In this document: piece by piece, positions 39,421 through 47,695 of the stretch
How positions within the stretch are numbered: position 1 is the stretch's first letter
Layout: the number at the start of each line of letters is the position of its first letter
Source: Planctomycetota bacterium
Lineage (GTDB): Bacteria; Planctomycetota; UBA1135; JACQFD01
Direction: 5' to 3'
NCBI GenBank assembly: GCA_016200225.1
Contig: JACQFD010000008.1
Location: forward strand, 16,433 to 80,432
Length of the DNA: 64,000 nucleotides
Made by a program: the position numbers and the translations under genes
Notes under the pieces: generated by a model
The model's database searches: none
Told to the model about the DNA's origin: nothing
The model's input: the letters and a program-made list of their open reading frames with translations, nothing else

Positions 39421-40395
39421 GTGCCGTCGATTCCTTTTCTGCCGCATCCGTGCCTCCGCGGCGCGCACGCGCAGACGCTTTTCGGGACAATGGGAGCCGG
39501 TGATTTGGTGCCGGCCGCGCGCGAACACCGCGTCGAACTCGAAGACGGCGACTCGATGGTGCTCCACGAGGACCCGCCCACGAGTGGTACGATCGCCTCG
39601 CGCGCCGCGCTTTTAGTGCATGGACTTACGGGCGATCACGCGGCCGGATACATGGTCCGCGTCGCCGCGCGCCTTCGCGAGCGCGGATACACGACGTTTC
39701 GCGCCGATTTGCGCGGCGCGGGGCGTTCCGCCTCAATGTGTAGAAAGTTTTATCATAGCGGCGTCAGTTCCGACGTCGCCGCGGCCGTCCGGTTCATATC
39801 TAAAAGATCCGGACGTCTGCCGATCGACCTCGTGGGGTTCTCGCTCGGCGGAAATATTATATTAAAATACGCGGCCGAGCGTCTTTACAAAAAAGACGGG
39901 CCCGGAATTCATATCAATAAGATCGCCACCGTGAGCGCGCCCGCCGATCTGGCGCGGAGTTTTTCGAAACTGAGCCGCGGCTTCGGACGCTTTTACAATC
40001 GTTATTTTACAAAACACGTCGTGCGCACGCTCGACAACCATTTAAAACTCGTCCCGGGCGCCGCGGTCGCGCGTTTCGCGCGCAAACCGCGCACGATGCT
40101 CGAAATCGTCGAAGGCTACACCGCTCCCGTGCACGGATTTTCGAGCGCGCTCGATTATTACGAAAAGTGTTCGTCGGCGCCGCACTTGGCGAATATCGAG
40201 ATTCCAACGCTTGCTATTATTTCGCGCGACGACCCTTTGGTCGACTCCACCGCGTACGAAGATTTCCGCGGCACCACCATCCGCGTACTCTTAACAGAAG
40301 CCGGCGGCCACATGGGATTCTTCGCCAAATCCGGATCGGATCCCGATCGAAGATGGATGGACTGGCGAATTGTAGAGTGGTTGACGGAAGCGTGA
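39421..40395 (+). CDS. YheT-like alpha/beta fold hydrolase
   Basis: HAQT, LLVHGLTG, GFSLGG nucleophile elbow, DDPLV, GGHMGF. GTG start at 39421 chosen to avoid overlap with the divergent gene. Confidence 0.9.
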   Translation: MPSIPFLPHPCLRGAHAQTLFGTMGAGDLVPAAREHRVELEDGDSMVLHEDPPTSGTIASRAALLVHGLTGDHAAGYMVRVAARLRERGYTTFRADLRGAGRSASMCRKFYHSGVSSDVAAAVRFISKRSGRLPIDLVGFSLGGNIILKYAAERLYKKDGPGIHINKIATVSAPADLARSFSKLSRGFGRFYNRYFTKHVVRTLDNHLKLVPGAAVARFARKPRTMLEIVEGYTAPVHGFSSALDYYEKCSSAPHLANIEIPTLAIISRDDPLVDSTAYEDFRGTTIRVLLTEAGGHMGFFAKSGSDPDRRWMDWRIVEWLTEA

Positions 40396-40407
40396 TGTAG
40401 TTTAACA

Positions 40408-40442
40408 AACCGGCCGCCGGGATTCTCCCGCGGCGGCCGGTT
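40408..40442. terminator. GC-rich hairpin between convergent genes, likely bidirectional terminator
   Basis: AACCGGCCGCCG...CGGCGGCCGGTT perfect 12 bp stem. Confidence 0.65.
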
Positions 40443-40462
40443 CGATGCCGAAAACATTAGAT

Positions 40463-41500
40463 TTATAACTTCACGTTTTCCTTATGTTTGTCGCAGGCTT
40501 TTTTGGCTTTCTGACAGGCGGCGCACTCGGATTTGTAGCCGGGCATGCCCTGATCGACCAATTCCTGCGCGTGTTTCTTCGCCGTATCGGCGATTTTGGT
40601 GCCGGGGCAGGATTTGATCAATTCGGCGTAGACCGCGACGGCTTTTGTGTATTCTTTCGCGGTCTCGAATTCGTGCGCTTTTTCGTACTTCTCGCCGCCG
40701 GAAAGCTCGGATTTAAATTTAGCGTTCGATTCGAGCGATTTTAAGAATTCGGCCGCGTCTTTCGTCGTCGGAAACGGCGGCGCGGCTTTGGCGACGGTCT
40801 GTACGAGGCGAACGGCTTCATAAATAAAACCGTCATCGTTGGCTTTCTTCGCGGATGTTAACGATGAATCCGCCTCGCTTTCGAGAAATTTAGTAAATCG
40901 CTCCGTCCACGCTTTGTCCGCGCCGGAGATTTTCTTAATATCCGCGTACGCTTGCGAAAGTTTGCGCGCGCGGAGCGAAGCCATCACGGGCGCGAACTTT
41001 TCGGGAACGACGCGGCCTTTCTTCGCGCTCGCGAGCGCCGCCATGACTTTCTGTTCCGCCTCGGCGGCGCCGCCGGAAAATATAAGATTTCCGCCCGGAT
41101 CGAGCGCCGCGCCCGTCGGAAAGAACTCCACTTTCAACGCGACGTCGAAATCTTTATTTTTAATAATAACGATCGGGTACGTCGGCTTGAATTTTTGTAC
41201 AAATTGATCGACAAGCTTCGGATCCTCGTCGGTCACCGCGATGACGACCAAACCGTCGGCTTCCTTCTTTTCAGACGTGGTGTTGAGACCGGGGACCCCG
41301 GCCTGGCAGGGTCCTCACCACGTTCGAAAAATATCGAGATAAACGGCCTTGCCTTTCAATTCCGAAAGCGTTAGCGGCGGCGAATTATACCATTTTACCG
41401 CGTCGAATTCGGGGGGCGGCGCGCCGAGTTTTGCCTGCGCGGATGCGGCGGGAGCGAGCGCGCCCGCGACGGTGAGAATCGCGATTGTGATGTTTCGCAT
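40463..41500 (-). CDS. Selenocysteine-containing TlpA/redoxin-like protein (UxxC) with C-terminal helical/TPR-like region, 345 aa
   Basis: ORFs 41315-41500 and 40463-41251 are in one frame, separated only by TGA at 41315-41317. Readthrough gives signal peptide...GKAVYLDIFRTW-U-GPCQAGVPGLN...GLVVIAVTDED...FFPTGAALDPGG. Confidence 0.85.
41286..41304 (-). promoter_or_regulatory. Putative bacterial SECIS hairpin
   Basis: +11 to +29 after the UGA: AGGCCGGG-GUC-CCCGGUCU, an 8 bp stem (one G-U) with a G-first apical loop at +19. Confidence 0.65.
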
Positions 41501-41532
41501 ATTAGTAATAATAACGTTGGTGAACGAGAAAA

Positions 41533-41949
41533 TTATGATTTTCGCCTGCGGTAGACGGCTTTCATAATAGTGAAAAAGCCGCCGTCCGGCGTCGGGAGTT
41601 CGATCGTAAATAACAATTCGTCGGGCGTAATTTCGCGCGTCGTTTCCTTTAATTTAGAAACGCCCATGGCCGATTGCATCTCGCCGACAAACGTCATCGT
41701 TTTCGCGCGTTCGTCGAGCGTGCCGGTCATGTTGAGGATCGACGTCGACATCGAATCGACCCAGCAATGCACATATTTTTGCTGCATCATATCAAATCCG
41801 GCGACGCCGTGGCCCGTGAAGGGGCGGCCCGCCATGTCGCCGCGAAAGTCCATCACTTGCCAAAGTCCCCCGCCGGTCATGCGAATGTTCATTTCGCCCG
41901 CCCCGATCATTCTGCACCGGAATCCGCGAAAATATGCGAGACAAATCAC
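41533..41949 (-). pseudogene. DUF1579 family copy A, 5'-degenerate or truncated
   Basis: GGLWQVMDFRGDMAGRPFTGHG...WVDSM matches the DUF1579 gene at 47069. The upstream in-frame sequence (..GPHGDLQS*ISEV..) is interrupted by a stop and has no signal peptide. Confidence 0.6.
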
Positions 41950-42132
41950 TTCGGAAATTCAGCTTTGGAGGTCCCCATGCGGCCCGATCGTCGAGGGCTT
42001 CTGGAACCGTTGCCCGGCTGTGCCTTCCGGAGAGTTTGAATGATTCATGGGGTCGATTTCGCACGATCATCGTTCTTGACAATTCTAGCCGCATTGAAAT
42101 ATAAATTCTAATCCTGCAACACCCGAAAATTC

Positions 42133-43692
42133 ATGTCACTATCAAGAATTCTACTAATCATTTCGTGCGTCGTTCTTCTACTCATGAGCGGAAACGCGGT
42201 GGATGCCGCGGTTTTCAGTCCATTTAAACCCGTCGCTGTATTTATATCAAATCAGGTTGGCACGGGCAAGGCCGAGTTGTTTTCAACCAATATTATTGGA
42301 TCACCAGATTTAAATTTATCCGACAATCTCGTAACCGGCGGAAACGTCTCGTCGTTTACGTGGTCTCCGAACCGAAAATCGGTCGGGTTTATCGCCGACA
42401 AGATCACGGATGGTGTTCCCGAATTATTTATAGTTTCCGTGACAGGGAGCGCACTGGTTCGAGTATCTGCGCCCCTTGCCGCCGGCGAGTCCGTGACTCT
42501 TTTTGTATGGTCGCCGAAATCAAATAAGATCGCGTACGCAGTCTCCTCGGCCGGTCACATTTCCGTCCACGTCGTGAATCCCGACGGTTCCGCAAACGTG
42601 AAAGTAGGACAGACGCAATCTGTCAATTCGATCACTGCCGCGAAAGTTGCATTTTCGCCGAAGAGCGATAAATTAATGTTCATGGTCGATAACGATACAT
42701 CGGGAGAGACAGATGTGTTTGTTTGCAACGCCGACGGTTCGAATATTCTTAATATCTCCTCCCCAATGGTCGTCGGCGGCACGTCAGGGGCCGCCGCGTG
42801 GTCCCCGGATTCGAAATTCATCGCATACGTTGCGGACAAACTAATTGATGACAAGTCGGAATTATTCATTTGCAAGCCCGACGGCACCGGAACGCTAAAA
42901 ATGAACGGAACGCTTGTCGCGAATGGTAATATTTCAAGTTTTGCGTTTTCGCCAAATGCGAAAAGCATCGTGTATCGGGCCGATGAAGTGACGGACAATA
43001 TCTTCGAATTGTTTGCGACCAACGTGGACGGAAGCGGAAAGGTAAAGATCTCGCCCGCGCTTTCGGCGACACAGGACGTCGCGAATGTTATCAAATGGTC
43101 GCCGAAAGGCGATCACGTCGCTTATTTTGTCACCGATACGGTTGCTGCAAACCCAACGGGTATATTCGTAGCGAAGCGCGACGGTTCGCAGAATATACAA
43201 ATCAGCCCGCCTGCCAACAAGGCCAAGAGCATCGGCGGAATTGTATGGACAAAGGACTCGAAATCGATCATTTACGAAGCGGATCAGAACGTACTGGGGC
43301 AGCTGGAGTTATTCAGGGCGGCCCGCGACGGCTCGAAGATGACCGATCTCGTGGCAGGCCTTGTGACAACTGGGAGCACGTCTGGATTTAATATATCGCC
43401 AAAGACCGATCGCGTCGCGTTCGCGGCCAGCGAAACGTCGACGGGTCCTGTTGAAGGCTACGTCGTCCGCGCGGACGGCACAAACCTTACAAAAATTTCG
43501 ATTCCGCCGGGTGCGAACAAACTTGTTAAAGCACCGTTCTTCGCGTCAAAGCAAAATCGGATTATTTACAAAGAAGACAATTTGACGGACGGAACCAGCC
43601 TATTGTTTATTTCCAATGCGACGGGAAGCATGATCGAGCTCCTTTCATTCCAAGCGGGATCGGGCTCCGTCGTAAGTTTCGAAGTCGAATAA
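42133..43692 (+). CDS. Secreted TolB/PD40-like beta-propeller protein
   Basis: Signal peptide; about 8 repeats of WSP.(S)K.(I)AY.AD......ELF....DG. Confidence 0.85.
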   Translation: MSLSRILLIISCVVLLLMSGNAVDAAVFSPFKPVAVFISNQVGTGKAELFSTNIIGSPDLNLSDNLVTGGNVSSFTWSPNRKSVGFIADKITDGVPELFIVSVTGSALVRVSAPLAAGESVTLFVWSPKSNKIAYAVSSAGHISVHVVNPDGSANVKVGQTQSVNSITAAKVAFSPKSDKLMFMVDNDTSGETDVFVCNADGSNILNISSPMVVGGTSGAAAWSPDSKFIAYVADKLIDDKSELFICKPDGTGTLKMNGTLVANGNISSFAFSPNAKSIVYRADEVTDNIFELFATNVDGSGKVKISPALSATQDVANVIKWSPKGDHVAYFVTDTVAANPTGIFVAKRDGSQNIQISPPANKAKSIGGIVWTKDSKSIIYEADQNVLGQLELFRAARDGSKMTDLVAGLVTTGSTSGFNISPKTDRVAFAASETSTGPVEGYVVRADGTNLTKISIPPGANKLVKAPFFASKQNRIIYKEDNLTDGTSLLFISNATGSMIELLSFQAGSGSVVSFEVE

Positions 43693-43700
43693 CTGGGACC

Positions 43701-43736
43701 GAGAGGCGGCGGGGACGCGGCCCCGCCGTCGTTCTC
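43701..43736. terminator. Hairpin between convergent ORFs
   Basis: GGCGGCGGGG-ACGCGG-CCCCGCCGTC stem-loop. Confidence 0.55.
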
Positions 43737-43763
43737 ATCAATCATTATTGTCTTTATCGTTAG

Positions 43764-44136
43764 CTACTTCCGCCGCGTGTAATCGATCTGTAGCATTTTA
43801 TTCTCGACGCCGAGGTCGATCTCGCTGAGCGTCATCGTTCCCGCGTCGTTCCCGTGATATTGAAAGACGTTTTTGTAATATACGACTTTATTGTTACGCA
43901 TCGGATCGGGCGCCGAAGCATAAGTCGTCATCGTATTGGTCGCCGCGTCATAGGATCCCTCGTACACCGCGCCGATCGGATTCATCGAATCGACGCAGCA
44001 ATGCACATATTTTTGCTGCATCATATCAAATCCGGCGACGCCGTGGCCCGTGAAGGGGCGGCCCGCCATGTCGCCGCGAAAGTCCATCACTTGCCAAAGT
44101 CCCCCGCCGGTCATGCGAATGTTCATTTCGCCCGCC
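43764..44136 (-). pseudogene. DUF1579 copy B, chimeric fragment (middle of copy A joined to 3' half of copy C)
   Basis: 43983-44136 = 41749-41902 (154 bp, 1 mismatch). 43764-43994 = 47069-47299 (231 bp, 3 synonymous mismatches seen). The two tracts overlap in CATCGAATCGAC. Confidence 0.9.
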
Positions 44137-44145
44137 AGTGGATAC

Positions 44146-46869
44146 CTATTGTACGGTGATTGAAAGGGCGCGTGAACTTACAAGCTGAGAGTCGCCCGCG
44201 CCACAGTTTTCGCCGATCGAAGCGTCCTCGAGAAATATGAATTCGATGTATCTTACGATTCCATGAAGGTTCGGATCATTTGGAATCGCGATGGGCAGGA
44301 ACCCCTGGCCGAATCGATTACAATTCAGCGGACAGGCCGCGAGCCCCGACGAGGCAAAAGGATCCACATATAATAATAGATTAACGAAGAAAAAGTCGGC
44401 GCCGTTTGGATTTGACACATCGCCCAGAATCGCCGCGCCGGCCGCGCCGCGCGGAGCATTGGTTACGTATACGCCAAAAAGTGAATTCCCAACCGTTGGA
44501 AGCGACGCCACGGAGACTCCCATGACTCCGAAACAGCCGGGTGTTGCCGTGCCGATTGGCGATGTGCCGGAGTAGATTGTTTGTATATTCATTAAACTAT
44601 AAATCGTCGACGATCCAAAAAACGCGGCGTCGACGCGGCCGTCGGAATCGAGGTCGCCAAGCGCTGGATAATCCGTAACCAGTGGAGTGGAAATAATACT
44701 TGGAAAGGTGATCGATCCGGATCCATCATTAAGGAATGGCGCGATGACATGCGCTCCGGGAAATCCGATCATCGCATCATTTGAACCGTCTCGATTCAGG
44801 TCGACGCAGAGCAAGCTGCTAATTCCATATGTAACAGCGGGAATTTTTACTGGCGGGCCCGCGAGACCTAATCCGGTATTATAATAAACAAAGAGCTGGA
44901 TCGGATCGACGTTCTGCGCCGACATTAGAAGTAAATCGAACTGCGCGTCGCCATTCAAGTCTACCAATGTAATCGACTGAGGATAGGCCACCGCCGGATC
45001 GACGACCTGTGGAGGCAAAAACGTGCCATTCCCATTGCCGATATAGTAAGAAGTTAAAAAATTGATAATGTCCGCGACTCCATCATTATTGATGTCGCCG
45101 ACGTCAATTTTGAGCGGAGTCGTGGCCGTCGACGCCGGAAGCGACGCCCCCTGCGCAAATGCACCGACGCCATTATTAATATATATTTCGGTGGCCTTTC
45201 GCGCGATGACGAAATCCGGGGAGCCGTCGCCGTTCAAGTCGGACACATGGGTCTCGGCACCTGCGCTGGTTGAAAGGTTTTGATGTGGCTGAATTGTCTG
45301 GGATAATTGAAATGTCCCGCCAGCGCCCCCATGATAGATATTAACAATTTTCTTATCATTCGCCGGAATTATCATATCCAATACACCGTCCAAATTCAAA
45401 TCGGCAACGGCCACGTCGCCAATTCCGGCTGAAGTGAATACTGAAAAATCGGATGTGAATAGAAATCCCCCGACACCGTCGCCATTCAGGATCGTTACTT
45501 TGCTTGCGTTTGCGCACACGTCGTCCAATTTTCCGTCGCCATTGATATCCACAAGTTTTGATATGTAACAAGAACTTGGCGCGGCAAAACTCTGGAAGGC
45601 CGTGAAAAATCCACCCAAGCCGTTGCCCCGCTTGATACCAACCCGATCAATATTAGATTCGGCAAAGACCACGTCCTGTTTGCCGTCGCCGTCGAAATCG
45701 GCCGCGCGCGCACAGACCGATTCAATGAGTGAATCGACGAATACAGGATTCACGGCGCCGCCGTTCCCGTCCCCAATTGTCAGCGTACATCCGCCCGTTG
45801 CAAGATATGTGAGCGGATTTGCCGCGATGAAATCCGCTTTTCCGTCAGCATTATAATCTCCAAGGTCGAGACAATCCGGTGATGCGCCCGAATTGGAATT
45901 AATAATCGTTGGAAACTGACCCTGCCCGTTACCGAGGGCAATTGTAAGGATATGGTTCGGAATCGCCGATATTAAATATATATTCGGTCCCCTCCAGAAA
46001 AAGACAGAATACCCGGAGTAACTGCATCCGACGACCAGGTCTTCATTTCCGTCGAAATTTGCGTCGAGGATCCGCACATTCGACGGCCCAAGCTCGGTTA
46101 TAACTACAAAAAATGGCGGAAATACGCCCGGAGAACTAGCGAGAGAGACTTGAGCTGTCTTGGCGGCAATGTATGGAAGCGGACCTGACGAGGGCGAGGG
46201 AACGAAGCCGACGGATTGGTATTTATTCGTTACGACAAGATCCGGAAGTCCATCGTGATTCAGGTCTCCGGTCGCCGCGTCGGAAGGATAGTAGCCGGCA
46301 AAGAGCTTGGTTGAACTGGTGAACGCGCCAGTGTTATTCGCGAAGGCAATACTAATATCCTGGGTCGATGCCTGCAGGTGGGTTGTCACAACATCGATGA
46401 AACCATCCAGATTCAGGTCGGCCGCCGTGATACTTGACGTGTTTCCGAGAATGATTGGATACGAGGCGCCTTGTGGAAAACCTCCGAGTCCATTTCCTAA
46501 GAATACCGTAAATGCTCCCGATTGGCCGCCCGCGCAAAGGATATCAAGTTTTCCATCTTGATTCATATCGGCCACGGCGATCGGGCCAGGTCCCGTGCTG
46601 ACACTAATATACTTCACGTCAAAGGGCTGGCCGTTTAATTGATTTAAGAGAATCGCGATTGAACCGGTTGGCGTCGATGTTACCAATGTTACGGCGGAAT
46701 CGGGCGCTCCGTCCTGATTGAAGTCCGCCACGACCATCCCGGCGGGACTATTGGAAAGCAGTACACAATCATCCTTAAAGATCCCCTGCGCGTTCGCGCG
46801 CGATAATAACAATACAAAGAGACTAATGAATACGCCCGTCCACGCTGATTGAGTCAAAAGCTGCCGCAT
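44146..46869 (-). CDS. FG-GAP/VCBS repeat secreted protein 3
   Basis: Signal peptide from ATG 46869; ADFNQDGAPD-type repeats; C-terminal ...AIPNDPNLHG...VSSRALSITVQ domain. Confidence 0.9.
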   Translation of the reverse strand: MRQLLTQSAWTGVFISLFVLLLSRANAQGIFKDDCVLLSNSPAGMVVADFNQDGAPDSAVTLVTSTPTGSIAILLNQLNGQPFDVKYISVSTGPGPIAVADMNQDGKLDILCAGGQSGAFTVFLGNGLGGFPQGASYPIILGNTSSITAADLNLDGFIDVVTTHLQASTQDISIAFANNTGAFTSSTKLFAGYYPSDAATGDLNHDGLPDLVVTNKYQSVGFVPSPSSGPLPYIAAKTAQVSLASSPGVFPPFFVVITELGPSNVRILDANFDGNEDLVVGCSYSGYSVFFWRGPNIYLISAIPNHILTIALGNGQGQFPTIINSNSGASPDCLDLGDYNADGKADFIAANPLTYLATGGCTLTIGDGNGGAVNPVFVDSLIESVCARAADFDGDGKQDVVFAESNIDRVGIKRGNGLGGFFTAFQSFAAPSSCYISKLVDINGDGKLDDVCANASKVTILNGDGVGGFLFTSDFSVFTSAGIGDVAVADLNLDGVLDMIIPANDKKIVNIYHGGAGGTFQLSQTIQPHQNLSTSAGAETHVSDLNGDGSPDFVIARKATEIYINNGVGAFAQGASLPASTATTPLKIDVGDINNDGVADIINFLTSYYIGNGNGTFLPPQVVDPAVAYPQSITLVDLNGDAQFDLLLMSAQNVDPIQLFVYYNTGLGLAGPPVKIPAVTYGISSLLCVDLNRDGSNDAMIGFPGAHVIAPFLNDGSGSITFPSIISTPLVTDYPALGDLDSDGRVDAAFFGSSTIYSLMNIQTIYSGTSPIGTATPGCFGVMGVSVASLPTVGNSLFGVYVTNAPRGAAGAAILGDVSNPNGADFFFVNLLLYVDPFASSGLAACPLNCNRFGQGFLPIAIPNDPNLHGIVRYIEFIFLEDASIGENCGAGDSQLVSSRALSITVQ

Positions 46870-47068
46870 CGAATTCGTCCATTGGTTAGCAAACCGACAA
46901 ATGGAACCGGGACACCCTACCCGGGAACGCCTCCCCACGGGGGCCTAAAATAAATTTGCAATGCAGCGCGCCGTTGTCGGGAACGCGGAGAGCCGTTGCC
47001 AGCCGCGCGACCCGAAACCGGTTCGCGCGGCCTTTCAGGCGGCCAGAAACGCAATAATAAATCGAATC

Positions 47069-47695
47069 CTATTTCCGCCGCGTGTAATCGATCTGTAGCA
47101 TTTTATTCTCGACGCCGAGGTCGATCTCGCTGAGCGTCATCGTTCCCGCGTCGTTCCCGTGATATTGAAAAACGTTTTTGTAATATACGACTTTATTGTT
47201 ACGCATCGGATCGGGCGCCGAAGCGTAAGTCGTCATCGTATTGGTCGCCGCGTCATAGGATCCCTCGTACACCGCGCCGATCGGATTCATCGAATCGACC
47301 CAGTATGTTACAAATTTTCCCTTGACCGGATCATAACCATTCAGTCCGTGGCCGGTGAACGGCGTTCCCATGAAATCGCCGCTGAACTCGACCACCTGCC
47401 AGAATCCGCCGGCGGAAGTTTTTCGCGTCTCCATGGCCTTGCTCACCATTTCGGGCGCCGACGGATCGGGGCGCATTTTAATAACTGCGTCCCAGACTCC
47501 GTCGTTTTGTTGTATCATCGCGTGTTGCGGACCCGGCTTCGGCATCGCCGCATCCATGCTCATCGCCATCGACGCGTCCATCGTTGCCATCGCGCCGGAC
47601 GATTTCTTGTCGTTAGTCCCAGACTTGCATGCTACAAATACAAGAAGCCCCGCGGAAATAACGACTGCTTTCAAGGAAGTGTTTTTATTCATCAT
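47069..47695 (-). CDS. DUF1579 family lipoprotein, copy C (intact)
   Basis: Lipobox-like LLVFVA-C; PKPGPQH, GVWD, GGFW, FTGHG..GYDP.K.KFV.YWVDSM. Confidence 0.85.
   Translation of the reverse strand: MMNKNTSLKAVVISAGLLVFVACKSGTNDKKSSGAMATMDASMAMSMDAAMPKPGPQHAMIQQNDGVWDAVIKMRPDPSAPEMVSKAMETRKTSAGGFWQVVEFSGDFMGTPFTGHGLNGYDPVKGKFVTYWVDSMNPIGAVYEGSYDAATNTMTTYASAPDPMRNNKVVYYKNVFQYHGNDAGTMTLSEIDLGVENKMLQIDYTRRK

What the first reader, a model, noticed from the sequence alone, without database searches (positions are those of the whole stretch)
40463..41500. Hidden selenoprotein: exported TlpA-like oxidoreductase with UGPC and a SECIS-like hairpin
The ORF track splits this gene in two. The single in-frame TGA falls exactly on the first Cys of a thioredoxin CxxC motif (RTW-TGA-GPC), and the 63 nt up to the next annotated start continue as good redoxin sequence. 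An 8 bp hairpin with a G-first GUC loop lies at +11 to +29, as in bacterial SECIS elements. A signal peptide implies an extracytoplasmic selenoenzyme, fused to a C-terminal helical region ending in CxxCxxxxxxCxxH, a possible metal site.
Basis: partly seen in the sequence, partly recalled or inferred. Interest (0 to 1): 0.75.

Follow-up and report, generated by a model that had tools for sequence, protein, structure and literature searches.

The report
Exported selenocysteine TlpA-like redoxin gene
What gene finders split into two small genes is one gene for an exported thioredoxin-type redox enzyme with selenocysteine (encoded by UGA) in its active site; this kind of selenoprotein is already known, but its relatives carry an unusual three-helix RNA signal after the UGA.

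Summary
Window 41500..40463 (minus strand) is one 345-codon gene. Its only in-frame TGA (41317..41315) replaces the first Cys of a thioredoxin motif (FRTW-U-GPC).

The genome has tRNA-Sec, selA, selB and selD, and it uses TGA as an ordinary stop elsewhere. More than 60 orthologues and paralogues in Planctomycetota MAGs keep TGA at this codon. A few carry TGC or TGT, including a 61%-identical syntenic orthologue nested inside the window's own clade.

The 8-bp hairpin with a GUC loop is real (41304..41286). It meets all four published bacterial SECIS criteria. Its apical loop is the same as in the genome's own selD SECIS. It is absent from the Cys orthologue.

The N-terminal domain is a ResA/TlpA fold. 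The C-terminal 190 residues are a confident TPR-like helical domain with no known relative, ending in an invariant CxxCx6CxxH.

The class (TlpA-like UxxC selenoproteins) is already catalogued, so this is a new member of a known kind.

A side finding is new to me. Most relatives lack a canonical SECIS. Instead they carry a conserved three-helix element whose SelB-type hairpin lies 73 nt after the UGA. The window's clade replaced it with the simple hairpin.

The parts
40463..41500 (-). Complete gene: 345 codons plus TAA stop, read through one UGA (Sec62)
   Evidence: Full-length homologues at 33-63% identity. AlphaFold2 mean pLDDT 93.4 over the joined protein.
41438..41500 (-). Predicted Sec-type signal peptide (res 1-21, MRNITIAILTVAGALAPAASA, AxA site before Q22)
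   Evidence: Inspection of the sequence. The same layout is seen in all orthologues. pLDDT about 50 for residues 1-20. No signal-peptide predictor was run.
41033..41422 (-). TlpA/ResA-like thioredoxin-fold (Redoxin) domain, res about 27-156
   Evidence: Pfam Redoxin 47 bits (cut-off 26.6) and AhpC-TSA 38 bits. Foldseek matches ResA, DsbE and the DipZ C-terminal domain at E 1e-8, with TM normalised to target about 0.8.
41306..41317 (-). Active-site motif U62-G-P-C65; the Sec codon TGA is at 41317..41315
   Evidence: TGA at the same codon in more than 60 homologues, and TGC/TGT in Cys forms. Contigs of two samples are identical across it.
41286..41304 (-). Proximal SECIS hairpin: stem 41304-41297 / 41293-41286 (8 bp), loop GUC 41296-41294, 18 nt after the UGA
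   Evidence: -12.5 kcal/mol; it is the first element once the ribosome-covered bases are left out. Nucleotide-identical in L020. Register-slipped GUCCGG-GGUC-CCGGAU in same-genus L024. Absent in the Cys orthologue L021. Same G-GUC-C apical loop as the genome's selD SECIS.
41226..41244 (-). Decayed remnant of the family's distal hairpin P3 (UCAUCGC-GGUGA-CCGACGA; 5 of 7 pairs possible)
   Evidence: Pair probability 0.32 against 0.9-1.0 in relatives.
40541..41023 (-). C-terminal all-helical, TPR-like domain (res about 160-320), with no known family
   Evidence: AlphaFold2 pLDDT 95. Best PDB matches E >= 0.19, TM <= 0.3 (BamD, YbgF TPR). No Pfam family.
40484..40525 (-). Invariant C326-x2-C329-x6-C336-x2-H339 knuckle near the C-terminus (...VKL end)
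   Evidence: Invariant in 29 of 29 sequences. Metal binding is inferred, not tested.
40406..40444 (-). Strong GC hairpin followed by UUUGUU, about 20 nt after the stop: likely intrinsic terminator shared with the convergent hydrolase gene
   Evidence: -33.8 kcal/mol, z -3.6. The consensus scan did not list it.

Best explanation
This is one gene for a selenoprotein. An N-terminal signal peptide sends it across the cytoplasmic membrane. A TlpA/ResA-type thioredoxin-fold domain carries the redox pair Sec62-Gly-Pro-Cys65. A C-terminal TPR-like helical domain ends in a Cys3His knuckle.

During translation the UGA at 41317..41315 is read as selenocysteine by Sec-tRNA(Sec) delivered by SelB. SelB is recruited by the hairpin 41304..41286 (8 bp, GUC loop, 18 nt after the UGA), which sits just outside the ribosome when the UGA is in the A site.

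Outside the cytoplasm the enzyme most likely acts as a thiol-disulfide reductase or isomerase. Sec is the attacking nucleophile and Cys65 the resolving residue. The enzyme is probably kept reduced through the genome's DsbD/CcdA-type membrane protein. The helical domain and knuckle probably serve partner, substrate or metal binding.

Shown: the single frame, the Sec/Cys alternation, the complete Sec machinery, a model-compliant hairpin, and the fold. Inferred: export, SelB binding to this particular hairpin, the direction of the redox reaction, and the role of the C-terminal domain.
For: - Single frame with one TGA at the CxxC position.
- tRNA-Sec, selA, selB and selD are all above curated cut-offs, and selD is itself Sec-encoded.
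- TGA is a normal stop in this genome: it ends 625 of 1,896 long frames.
- Orthologues L020, L022-L037, L039, L041, L043, L086-L090, L110, L111, L113, and paralogous subfamilies, keep TGA at the same codon. L021, L040 and L042 have TGC.
- The tree places Cys-form L021 inside the window's 100/100 clade, which is nested among Sec forms.
- The hairpin passes the four bSECIS criteria quoted in PMC13188914: loop 3-9 nt, stem 4-16 bp, G among the first two loop bases, spacing 16-37 nt, energy <= -7.5 kcal/mol.
- The apical loop is the same as in selD, and close to the GGUC loops of five other Sec redoxin genes in the genome.
- Redoxin Pfam hit and ResA-like fold.
- DsbD_TM is present in the genome.
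- Identical contigs in two samples.
Against: - There is no direct evidence of selenium incorporation or expression.
- The hairpin is only modestly better than synonymous recodings (p about 0.03-0.05). Much of its pairing comes from Gly/Pro codons.
- A competing hairpin (GGACCCUG/CGGGGUCC, starting right after the UGA) is the unconstrained minimum-energy fold.
- Most relatives use a different RNA element, so which hairpin SelB binds is not settled.
- All NCBIfam equivalogs (ResA, TlpA, WAxxUGC) score far below cut-off.
- Export rests on inspection only.
Confidence: 0.88

Rival explanations
1. The gene is a genuine selenoprotein, but the proximal hairpin is not the SelB site. Sec insertion would instead use the weakened distal hairpin (41244..41226) inherited from the family's three-helix element, or both hairpins together.
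For: In all other Sec members a perfectly conserved hairpin lies at +73..+91. The window keeps 5 of its 7 pairs and a GGUGA loop. The proximal hairpin has only modest statistical support.
Against: The closing helix P1 that brings the distal hairpin near the UGA is lost here (pair-probability sum 0.6 against 7-10 in relatives), and the distal hairpin has probability 0.32. L020 has remodelled it further. The proximal hairpin is nucleotide-identical in L020, is compensated in L024, is missing in the Cys form, and has the selD-type loop.
Confidence: 0.08
2. The gene is a pseudogene: a nonsense mutation, or a sequencing or assembly error, in an ordinary Cys-type TlpA-like gene.
For: TGA and TGC differ by one base. 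Public gene calls split the gene.
Against: The same TGA is found in more than 60 homologues down to 23% identity and in 110 of 339 genomes of the order. Both halves are conserved as protein. Contigs of two samples are identical. The full Sec machinery is present.
Confidence: 0.01
3. UGA is decoded here as something other than Sec: a genome-wide reassignment to Trp or Gly, or Cys carried on tRNA-Sec when selenium is scarce.
For: The frame is open under any code that reads TGA. Cys at UGA under selenium limitation is known in other systems (from my knowledge, not checked here).
Against: TGA ends a third of the long frames in this genome, including the convergent neighbour gene. The position aligns with Cys, never Trp or Gly, in homologues. 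Facultative Cys insertion would supplement Sec decoding, not replace it.
Confidence: 0.03

Closest known systems
'Thiol-disulfide isomerase-like protein' selenoprotein family (TlpA-like, cd02966, UxxC), predicted from ocean metagenomes and listed in the 2026 review (PMC13188914, PMC2398784)
   Same: Thioredoxin-fold TlpA-like domain with Sec as the first residue of UxxC. Cys homologues exist. Known only from sequence.
   Different: I could not test the CDD assignment or similarity to the listed exemplar. This protein adds a roughly 190-residue TPR-like domain and a Cys3His knuckle that the listing does not mention.
ResA / TlpA / CcmG(DsbE) extracytoplasmic thiol-disulfide oxidoreductases (Cys enzymes)
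   Same: Fold (TM about 0.8 to ResA 1st9/2h1b, DsbE 3gl3, DipZ-C 2hyx), a W-x-G-P-C type motif, N-terminal export or anchor signal, and a DsbD/CcdA-type partner present in the genome.
   Different: Sec replaces the nucleophilic Cys. Scores are far below the NCBIfam equivalog cut-offs (ResA 62 against 170; TlpA 35 against 230). It has an extra C-terminal domain. It is not linked to cytochrome c maturation or cox genes.
Planctomycete P1 'thiol-disulfide isomerase-like thioredoxin' selenoprotein candidates (Kim et al. 2016, PMC4807772, S9 Table)
   Same: Same phylum, same kind of split gene, with Cys in the closest hits.
   Different: Those two candidates were reported with no SECIS found by bSECISearch. 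The window gene does have a model-compliant hairpin, and it is most of its relatives that lack one. Sequence relationship was not tested.
NCBIfam NF041054, ResA-like WAxxUGC motif-containing selenoprotein
   Same: ResA-like exported Sec redoxin.
   Different: The motif is FRTW-U-GPC, not WAxxUGC. Score 42.8 against cut-off 300. Not a member.
Bacterial SECIS consensus (bSECISearch model) and the E. coli fdhF SECIS
   Same: A single hairpin just after the UGA, with a G/U-containing apical loop at 16-37 nt spacing. The window hairpin meets all four criteria.
   Different: The lower stem that includes the UGA (41323-41316 / 41282-41275) is not conserved in L020. Relatives carry a three-helix element that fails the spacing rule.

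Membership tests
Bacterial selenoprotein (Sec encoded by UGA) | In-frame UGA aligned with Cys (or Sec) in homologues | tested here: met
   TGA in more than 60 homologues; TGC/TGT in L021, L040, L042 and outgroups
Bacterial selenoprotein (Sec encoded by UGA) | selA, selB, selC and selD present in the genome | tested here: met
   all above curated cut-offs; ARAGORN calls tRNA-SeC (tca)
Bacterial selenoprotein (Sec encoded by UGA) | SECIS hairpin downstream of the UGA (published model: loop 3-9 nt, stem 4-16 bp, G in the first two loop bases, spacing 16-37 nt, <= -7.5 kcal/mol) | tested here: met
   8 bp, loop GUC, spacing 18, -12.5 kcal/mol. This used my own simple re-implementation; bSECISearch itself was not run.
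Bacterial selenoprotein (Sec encoded by UGA) | Selenium found in the protein | not testable with these tools
   Needs 75Se labelling or mass spectrometry
TlpA/ResA-like redoxin (Pfam Redoxin PF08534; TlpA-like thioredoxin fold) | Domain score above the curated threshold | tested here: met
   47 bits against 26.6
TlpA/ResA-like redoxin (Pfam Redoxin PF08534; TlpA-like thioredoxin fold) | Thioredoxin fold with the ResA-type insertion | tested here: met
   pLDDT 93; ResA and DsbE matches at TM normalised to target about 0.8
TlpA/ResA-like redoxin (Pfam Redoxin PF08534; TlpA-like thioredoxin fold) | Extracytoplasmic location | tested here: inconclusive
   Signal-peptide-like N-terminus by inspection only
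NCBIfam equivalogs ResA (NF002854), TlpA (NF047696), WAxxUGC_long (NF041054) | Score above the curated cut-off | tested here: not met
   62 of 170, 35 of 230, 43 of 300
'Thiol-disulfide isomerase-like protein' selenoprotein family (cd02966, UxxC) | UxxC motif in a TlpA-like domain | tested here: met
'Thiol-disulfide isomerase-like protein' selenoprotein family (cd02966, UxxC) | CDD cd02966 assignment, and similarity to the listed exemplar MGB1650493.1 | not tested

The most novel reading that the evidence does not exclude
In most members of this Planctomycetota redoxin family, the Sec-insertion signal is not the textbook hairpin next to the UGA. This includes a paralogue in the same genome (C29:131713-131807) and genes in 110 of 339 genomes of the order. 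The signal is a three-helix element. A closing helix P1 (+17..+24 paired with +62..+69) encloses a variable hairpin P2. Two nucleotides later comes an almost invariant 7-bp hairpin P3 (UCAUCGG-NGUNA-CCGAUGA, +73..+91). The loop of P3 matches the loops of canonical SECIS hairpins in the same genome. With P1 closed, P3 lies about 23 nt from the UGA by the path through the junction, so SelB could bind it. That would make this a bacterial SECIS class with an inserted stem, invisible to bSECISearch. The window's clade would then record its replacement by a simple proximal hairpin, with L024 and L030 as intermediates.
Probability: 0.5. Interest if true: 0.7.

Novelty: new member of a known kind. Interest (0 to 1): 0.45.

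Why it matters
For annotation: this gene and dozens of relatives are cut in two in public records, and this genome alone has at least ten redoxin-fold genes with an in-frame TGA. Selenium use in groundwater Planctomycetota is therefore under-counted.

For biology: an exported Sec-containing TlpA-like enzyme with a dedicated helical domain and a Cys3His knuckle points to selenium-based redox chemistry outside the cytoplasm whose substrate is unknown.

For recoding: the family offers a natural comparison between a canonical hairpin (this gene) and a conserved three-helix element at 73 nt (its relatives and a paralogue), both served by the same SelB. Reviews admit that some bacterial SECIS elements fail the consensus model but do not describe them, and this pair makes the question directly testable.

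Tried and rejected
- Rfam scan of 40300-41700 at E <= 10: only chance-level hits and no SECIS family.
- Whole-region fold z-score: not significant (-0.99). Support for the hairpin had to come from comparison with relatives.
- Lower stem ACGUGGUG/CACCACGU that includes the UGA: not conserved in L020, so I dropped it as part of the element.
- Hairpin starting directly after the UGA (GGACCCUG-CCAGGC-CGGGGUCC): it lies inside the ribosome footprint and its pairing follows from the Gly-Pro...Gly codons, with mixed and uncompensated third positions in relatives. I rejected it as the SECIS.
- P2 as the SelB site in relatives: its apical loops vary (AAGUG, GAAUG, ACGA, AGAA, CAUAA) and mostly fail the G rule. 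I judged it less likely than P3.
- Naive genome-wide scan for TGA plus hairpin plus redox-like motif: 534 hits, mostly off-frame noise in a 57% GC genome. I replaced it with a read-through Pfam Redoxin search.
- Metagenome scan: only 12 loci.
- Fold search and Pfam for the C-terminal domain: nothing significant.
- Consensus promoter and terminator scan: nothing above shuffles.
- One fixed register for P1 does not fit every subfamily (one has a 2-nt bulge), so I used an alignment-free pair-probability test instead.

Full report
**1. The observation**

On the minus strand, the ORF listing gives a 61-aa ORF (41500..41315) and a 262-aa ORF (41251..40463, TTG start) in the same frame. Translating 41500..40463 with TGA=U gives 345 residues and one TGA, at codon 62 (window 41317..41315), in the context F-R-T-W-U-G-P-C. 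The 63 nt between the TGA and the second ORF's start encode GPCQAGVPGLNTTSEKKEADG.

Pfam places Redoxin (47 bits, cut-off 26.6) and AhpC-TSA (38 bits) on residues about 29-141, spanning the TGA. That is +11..+29 counted from the base after the UGA.

The N-terminus MRNITIAILTVAGALAPAASA|QA looks like a Sec signal peptide by inspection. The tail holds C326-x2-C329-x6-C336-x2-H339.

**2. Is the UGA a selenocysteine codon?**

The window is contig C26 of a 5.3-Mb, 93.5%-complete assembly from a groundwater metagenome.

The genome holds the whole Sec machinery:
- tRNA-Sec: Rfam 73 bits against cut-off 47; ARAGORN calls SeC, anticodon tca
- selA: 505 bits
- selB: 310 bits
- selD: 336 bits, itself with one in-frame TGA in the motif CSG-U-AAK

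TGA is an ordinary stop here. It ends 625 of 1,896 open frames of 400 or more codons.

Homologues decide the matter.
- A syntenic 60%-identical orthologue (L020; the same hydrolase and aconitase neighbours) has TGA at the same codon.
- A syntenic 61%-identical orthologue (L021) has TGC.
- Two 35%-identical homologues have TGA.
- In a scan of species-representative genomes, 57 loci came back, nearly all from Planctomycetota MAGs. Every member of the window's subfamily (VFRTW-U-GPC; L024-L037, L039, L041, L043) has TGA. So does every member of a second subfamily (EKWATW-U-GPC). L040 and L042 have TGC, and outgroups from other phyla have TGC or TGT.
- Among 60 relatives of the genome, 27 of 29 matches carry the TGA.
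- Contigs from two samples are identical to the window across the codon.

A maximum-likelihood tree puts win, L020, L024 and Cys-form L021 in a 100/100 clade, sister to L025 and L026 (same family) and nested among Sec forms. The Cys form is therefore derived. A nonsense mutation, a sequencing error or a reassigned code are all excluded in practice.

**3. The SECIS of this gene**

The published bacterial model is quoted in PMC13188914, section 5. It asks for a 3-9 nt apical loop on a 4-16 bp stem, a G among the first two loop bases (usually followed by G or U), 16-37 nt between the UGA and the loop, and an energy of -7.5 kcal/mol or lower.

I re-implemented this model simply, with no bulges:

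| Sequence | Stem | Loop | Spacing | Energy | Result |
|---|---|---|---|---|---|
| Window | 8 bp | GUC | 18 nt | -12.5 kcal/mol | pass |
| L020 | identical nucleotides | GUC | 18 nt | -12.5 kcal/mol | pass |
| L024 (same genus) | GUCCGG / CCGGAU, slipped register | GGUC | 17 nt | -8.2 kcal/mol | pass |
| L021 (Cys orthologue) | nothing comparable | - | - | - | fail |

When the bases covered by a ribosome paused at the UGA are left out, this hairpin is the first element of the minimum-energy fold in win, L020 and L024.

The genome's own selD SECIS is CGCAG-GUC-CUGCG, with the same G-GUC-C apex at spacing 30. Five other Sec redoxin genes of the genome have GGUC loops at spacing 22-31.

The statistics are modest. 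3% (win) and 4.5% (L020) of synonymous recodings do as well, and 18 of 366 in-frame positions of this ORF meet the model. I put the chance that this hairpin is the SelB site at about 0.75-0.8.

**4. The protein**

AlphaFold2 on a 29-sequence alignment gives mean pLDDT 93.4 and pTM 0.84. Residues about 27-156 match ResA, a B. anthracis thiol-disulfide oxidoreductase, DsbE and the DipZ C-terminal domain, at E about 1e-8 and TM about 0.8 normalised to the target.

All NCBIfam equivalogs are far below cut-off: ResA 62 of 170, the selenoprotein model WAxxUGC_long 43 of 300, and TlpA 35 of 230. This explains why annotation pipelines do not rescue the gene.

Residues 160-345 fold confidently (pLDDT 95) into nine helices. 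They have no significant match in the PDB (best E 0.19, TM 0.3 or lower, faint TPR proteins such as BamD and YbgF) and no Pfam family. The CxxCx6CxxH knuckle, the G268-G269 pair and the PPFP motif are conserved.

The genome has one DsbD/CcdA-type membrane reductant conduit.

My reading is an exported Sec-dependent thiol-disulfide reductase or isomerase whose helical domain selects a partner. The knuckle may bind a metal or act as a relay. Only the fold and the motif are shown; the rest is inference from what is established for ResA, TlpA and CcmG.

Synteny beyond the closest relatives is not conserved. The gene stands alone, followed by a strong terminator-like hairpin.

**5. What is already known**

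[quoted passage not shown] Kim et al. 2016 listed two 'thiol-disulfide isomerase-like thioredoxin' Sec candidates in a planctomycete, both marked as having no SECIS by bSECISearch (PMC4807772, S9 Table).

Earlier notes of this scan describe several similar genes. These are leads only and I did not use them as evidence. The window gene is therefore a new member of a known kind.

**6. Side finding: a different recoding element in the relatives**

*P3.* Outside the window's small clade, all Sec forms carry a 7-bp hairpin UCAUCGG-NGUNA-CCGAUGA at +73..+91 from the U of the UGA. It is encoded by (V/I)-I-G-V-T-D-E.
- On 43 distinct sequences it is paired in 100% of cells, and 3 of its 7 pairs show compensatory double changes. 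One example is Gly to Ser (GGC to AGC) together with a synonymous ACC to ACU. Another is UCGUUGG/CCAACGA.
- RNAalifold finds it unaided.
- Cys homologues with the same IGVTDE peptide mostly use other codons and break it.

*P1.* A closing helix pairs +17..+24 with +62..+69.
- It is paired in 85% of cells, with four covarying pairs.
- It is predicted in 79 of 79 distinct sequences from the order, against 31% of codon-order shuffles.
- It encloses a variable hairpin, P2.

*Supporting constraint.* Synonymous-shuffle z-scores for +24..+66 average -1.9 and -2.2 in the two Sec subfamilies, against 0.08 in the Cys outgroups. Synonymous codon identity is also raised downstream of the UGA.

*Spread.* The pattern W-UGA-GPC, then 61 nt, then P3 occurs in 110 of 339 genomes of the order (62 of 147 genera). 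The reversed control pattern gives no hits. The spacing is fixed at 73 nt, except for two cases at 67 nt where P2 is shorter and the junction is kept.

*Relation to the canonical model.* These genes mostly fail the bSECIS model, which fits the 'no SECIS' entries of Kim et al.

*Same genome.* A paralogue in the window's own genome (C29:131713-131807) has the full element, with a 12-bp P1 and P3 = UCGUUGG-CGUGA-CCAACGA. The same SelB must therefore serve both designs. P3's loops (CGUGA, GGUCA) match loops of canonical-spacing SECIS hairpins in this genome: CGUGAUC in two peroxiredoxin-type genes, and GGUC in five others.

*Geometry.* With P1 closed, the path from the UGA to the P3 loop is 14 + 2 + 7 = 23 nt.

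*Reading.* I think P3 is the SelB-binding hairpin of an 'inserted-stem' SECIS (probability about 0.5). The window's clade lost P1 and weakened P3 (GAU to GAC, GGC to GCG; pair probabilities 0.6 and 0.32) after gaining the proximal hairpin around the same Val codon. L030 has the full three-helix element plus a 4-bp proximal hairpin. L024 has the proximal hairpin plus a 4-bp P3 remnant. They look like intermediates. None of this is tested.

**7. Verdict**

The finding is real and correctly interpreted. Its class is known and the gene itself is canonical. Its value is in annotation, in a new C-terminal domain, and as the canonical counterpart of an unusual family-wide recoding element.

Noticed in passing
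Loci L022-L043, L044-L074, L086-L095, L110-L113; own genome C29:131713-131807: A conserved three-helix RNA element follows the Sec UGA of related redoxin genes: closing helix P1, variable hairpin P2, and a near-invariant 7-bp hairpin P3 with an NGUNA loop at +73..+91. It shows compensatory changes, occurs in 110 of 339 genomes of the order, and there is no canonical SECIS at normal spacing.
   Followed up: yes
Own genome: C14:41076-41474, C14:41574-41963, C14:51098-51490, C15:55805-56182, C13:68341-68772, C29:42160-42537, C29:131605-131985, C10:20546-20902, C37:59273-59656: Nine further Redoxin-domain genes of this genome have an in-frame TGA at the redox position. They include two adjacent peroxiredoxin-type genes (TPG-U) and one with two TGAs three codons apart (V-U-L-T-U, a UxxU motif). 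Most have GGUC-loop hairpins 22-31 nt downstream.
   Followed up: partly
Own genome C9:90537-91454 (L017): selD is itself Sec-encoded (CSG-U-AAK). Its SECIS is CGCAG-GUC-CUGCG, 30 nt after the UGA. It lies next to selA (C9:91510-92859).
   Followed up: partly
L021 (Logan SRR8569140 contig), 254-256: A syntenic orthologue, 61% identical and nested inside the window's clade, has TGC (Cys) and lacks the proximal hairpin. This is a recent Sec-to-Cys replacement.
   Followed up: yes
L060, L053: Two members of the second subfamily sit in MAGs labelled Proteobacteria and Bacillota, although their genes cluster tightly with Planctomycetota sequences. This is probably mis-binning, or possibly transfer.
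   Followed up: no
window 41533-41949 (-): The ORF just upstream on the same strand (138 aa) is the subject of another note of this scan (a DUF1579-type repeat region, 41533-47695). It is not conserved next to the redoxin gene in L020 or L021.
   Followed up: no
window 40406-40444: A very stable GC-rich palindrome (-33.8 kcal/mol, z -3.6) lies between the convergent redoxin and alpha/beta-hydrolase genes. It is a likely bidirectional terminator that the consensus scan missed.
   Followed up: partly
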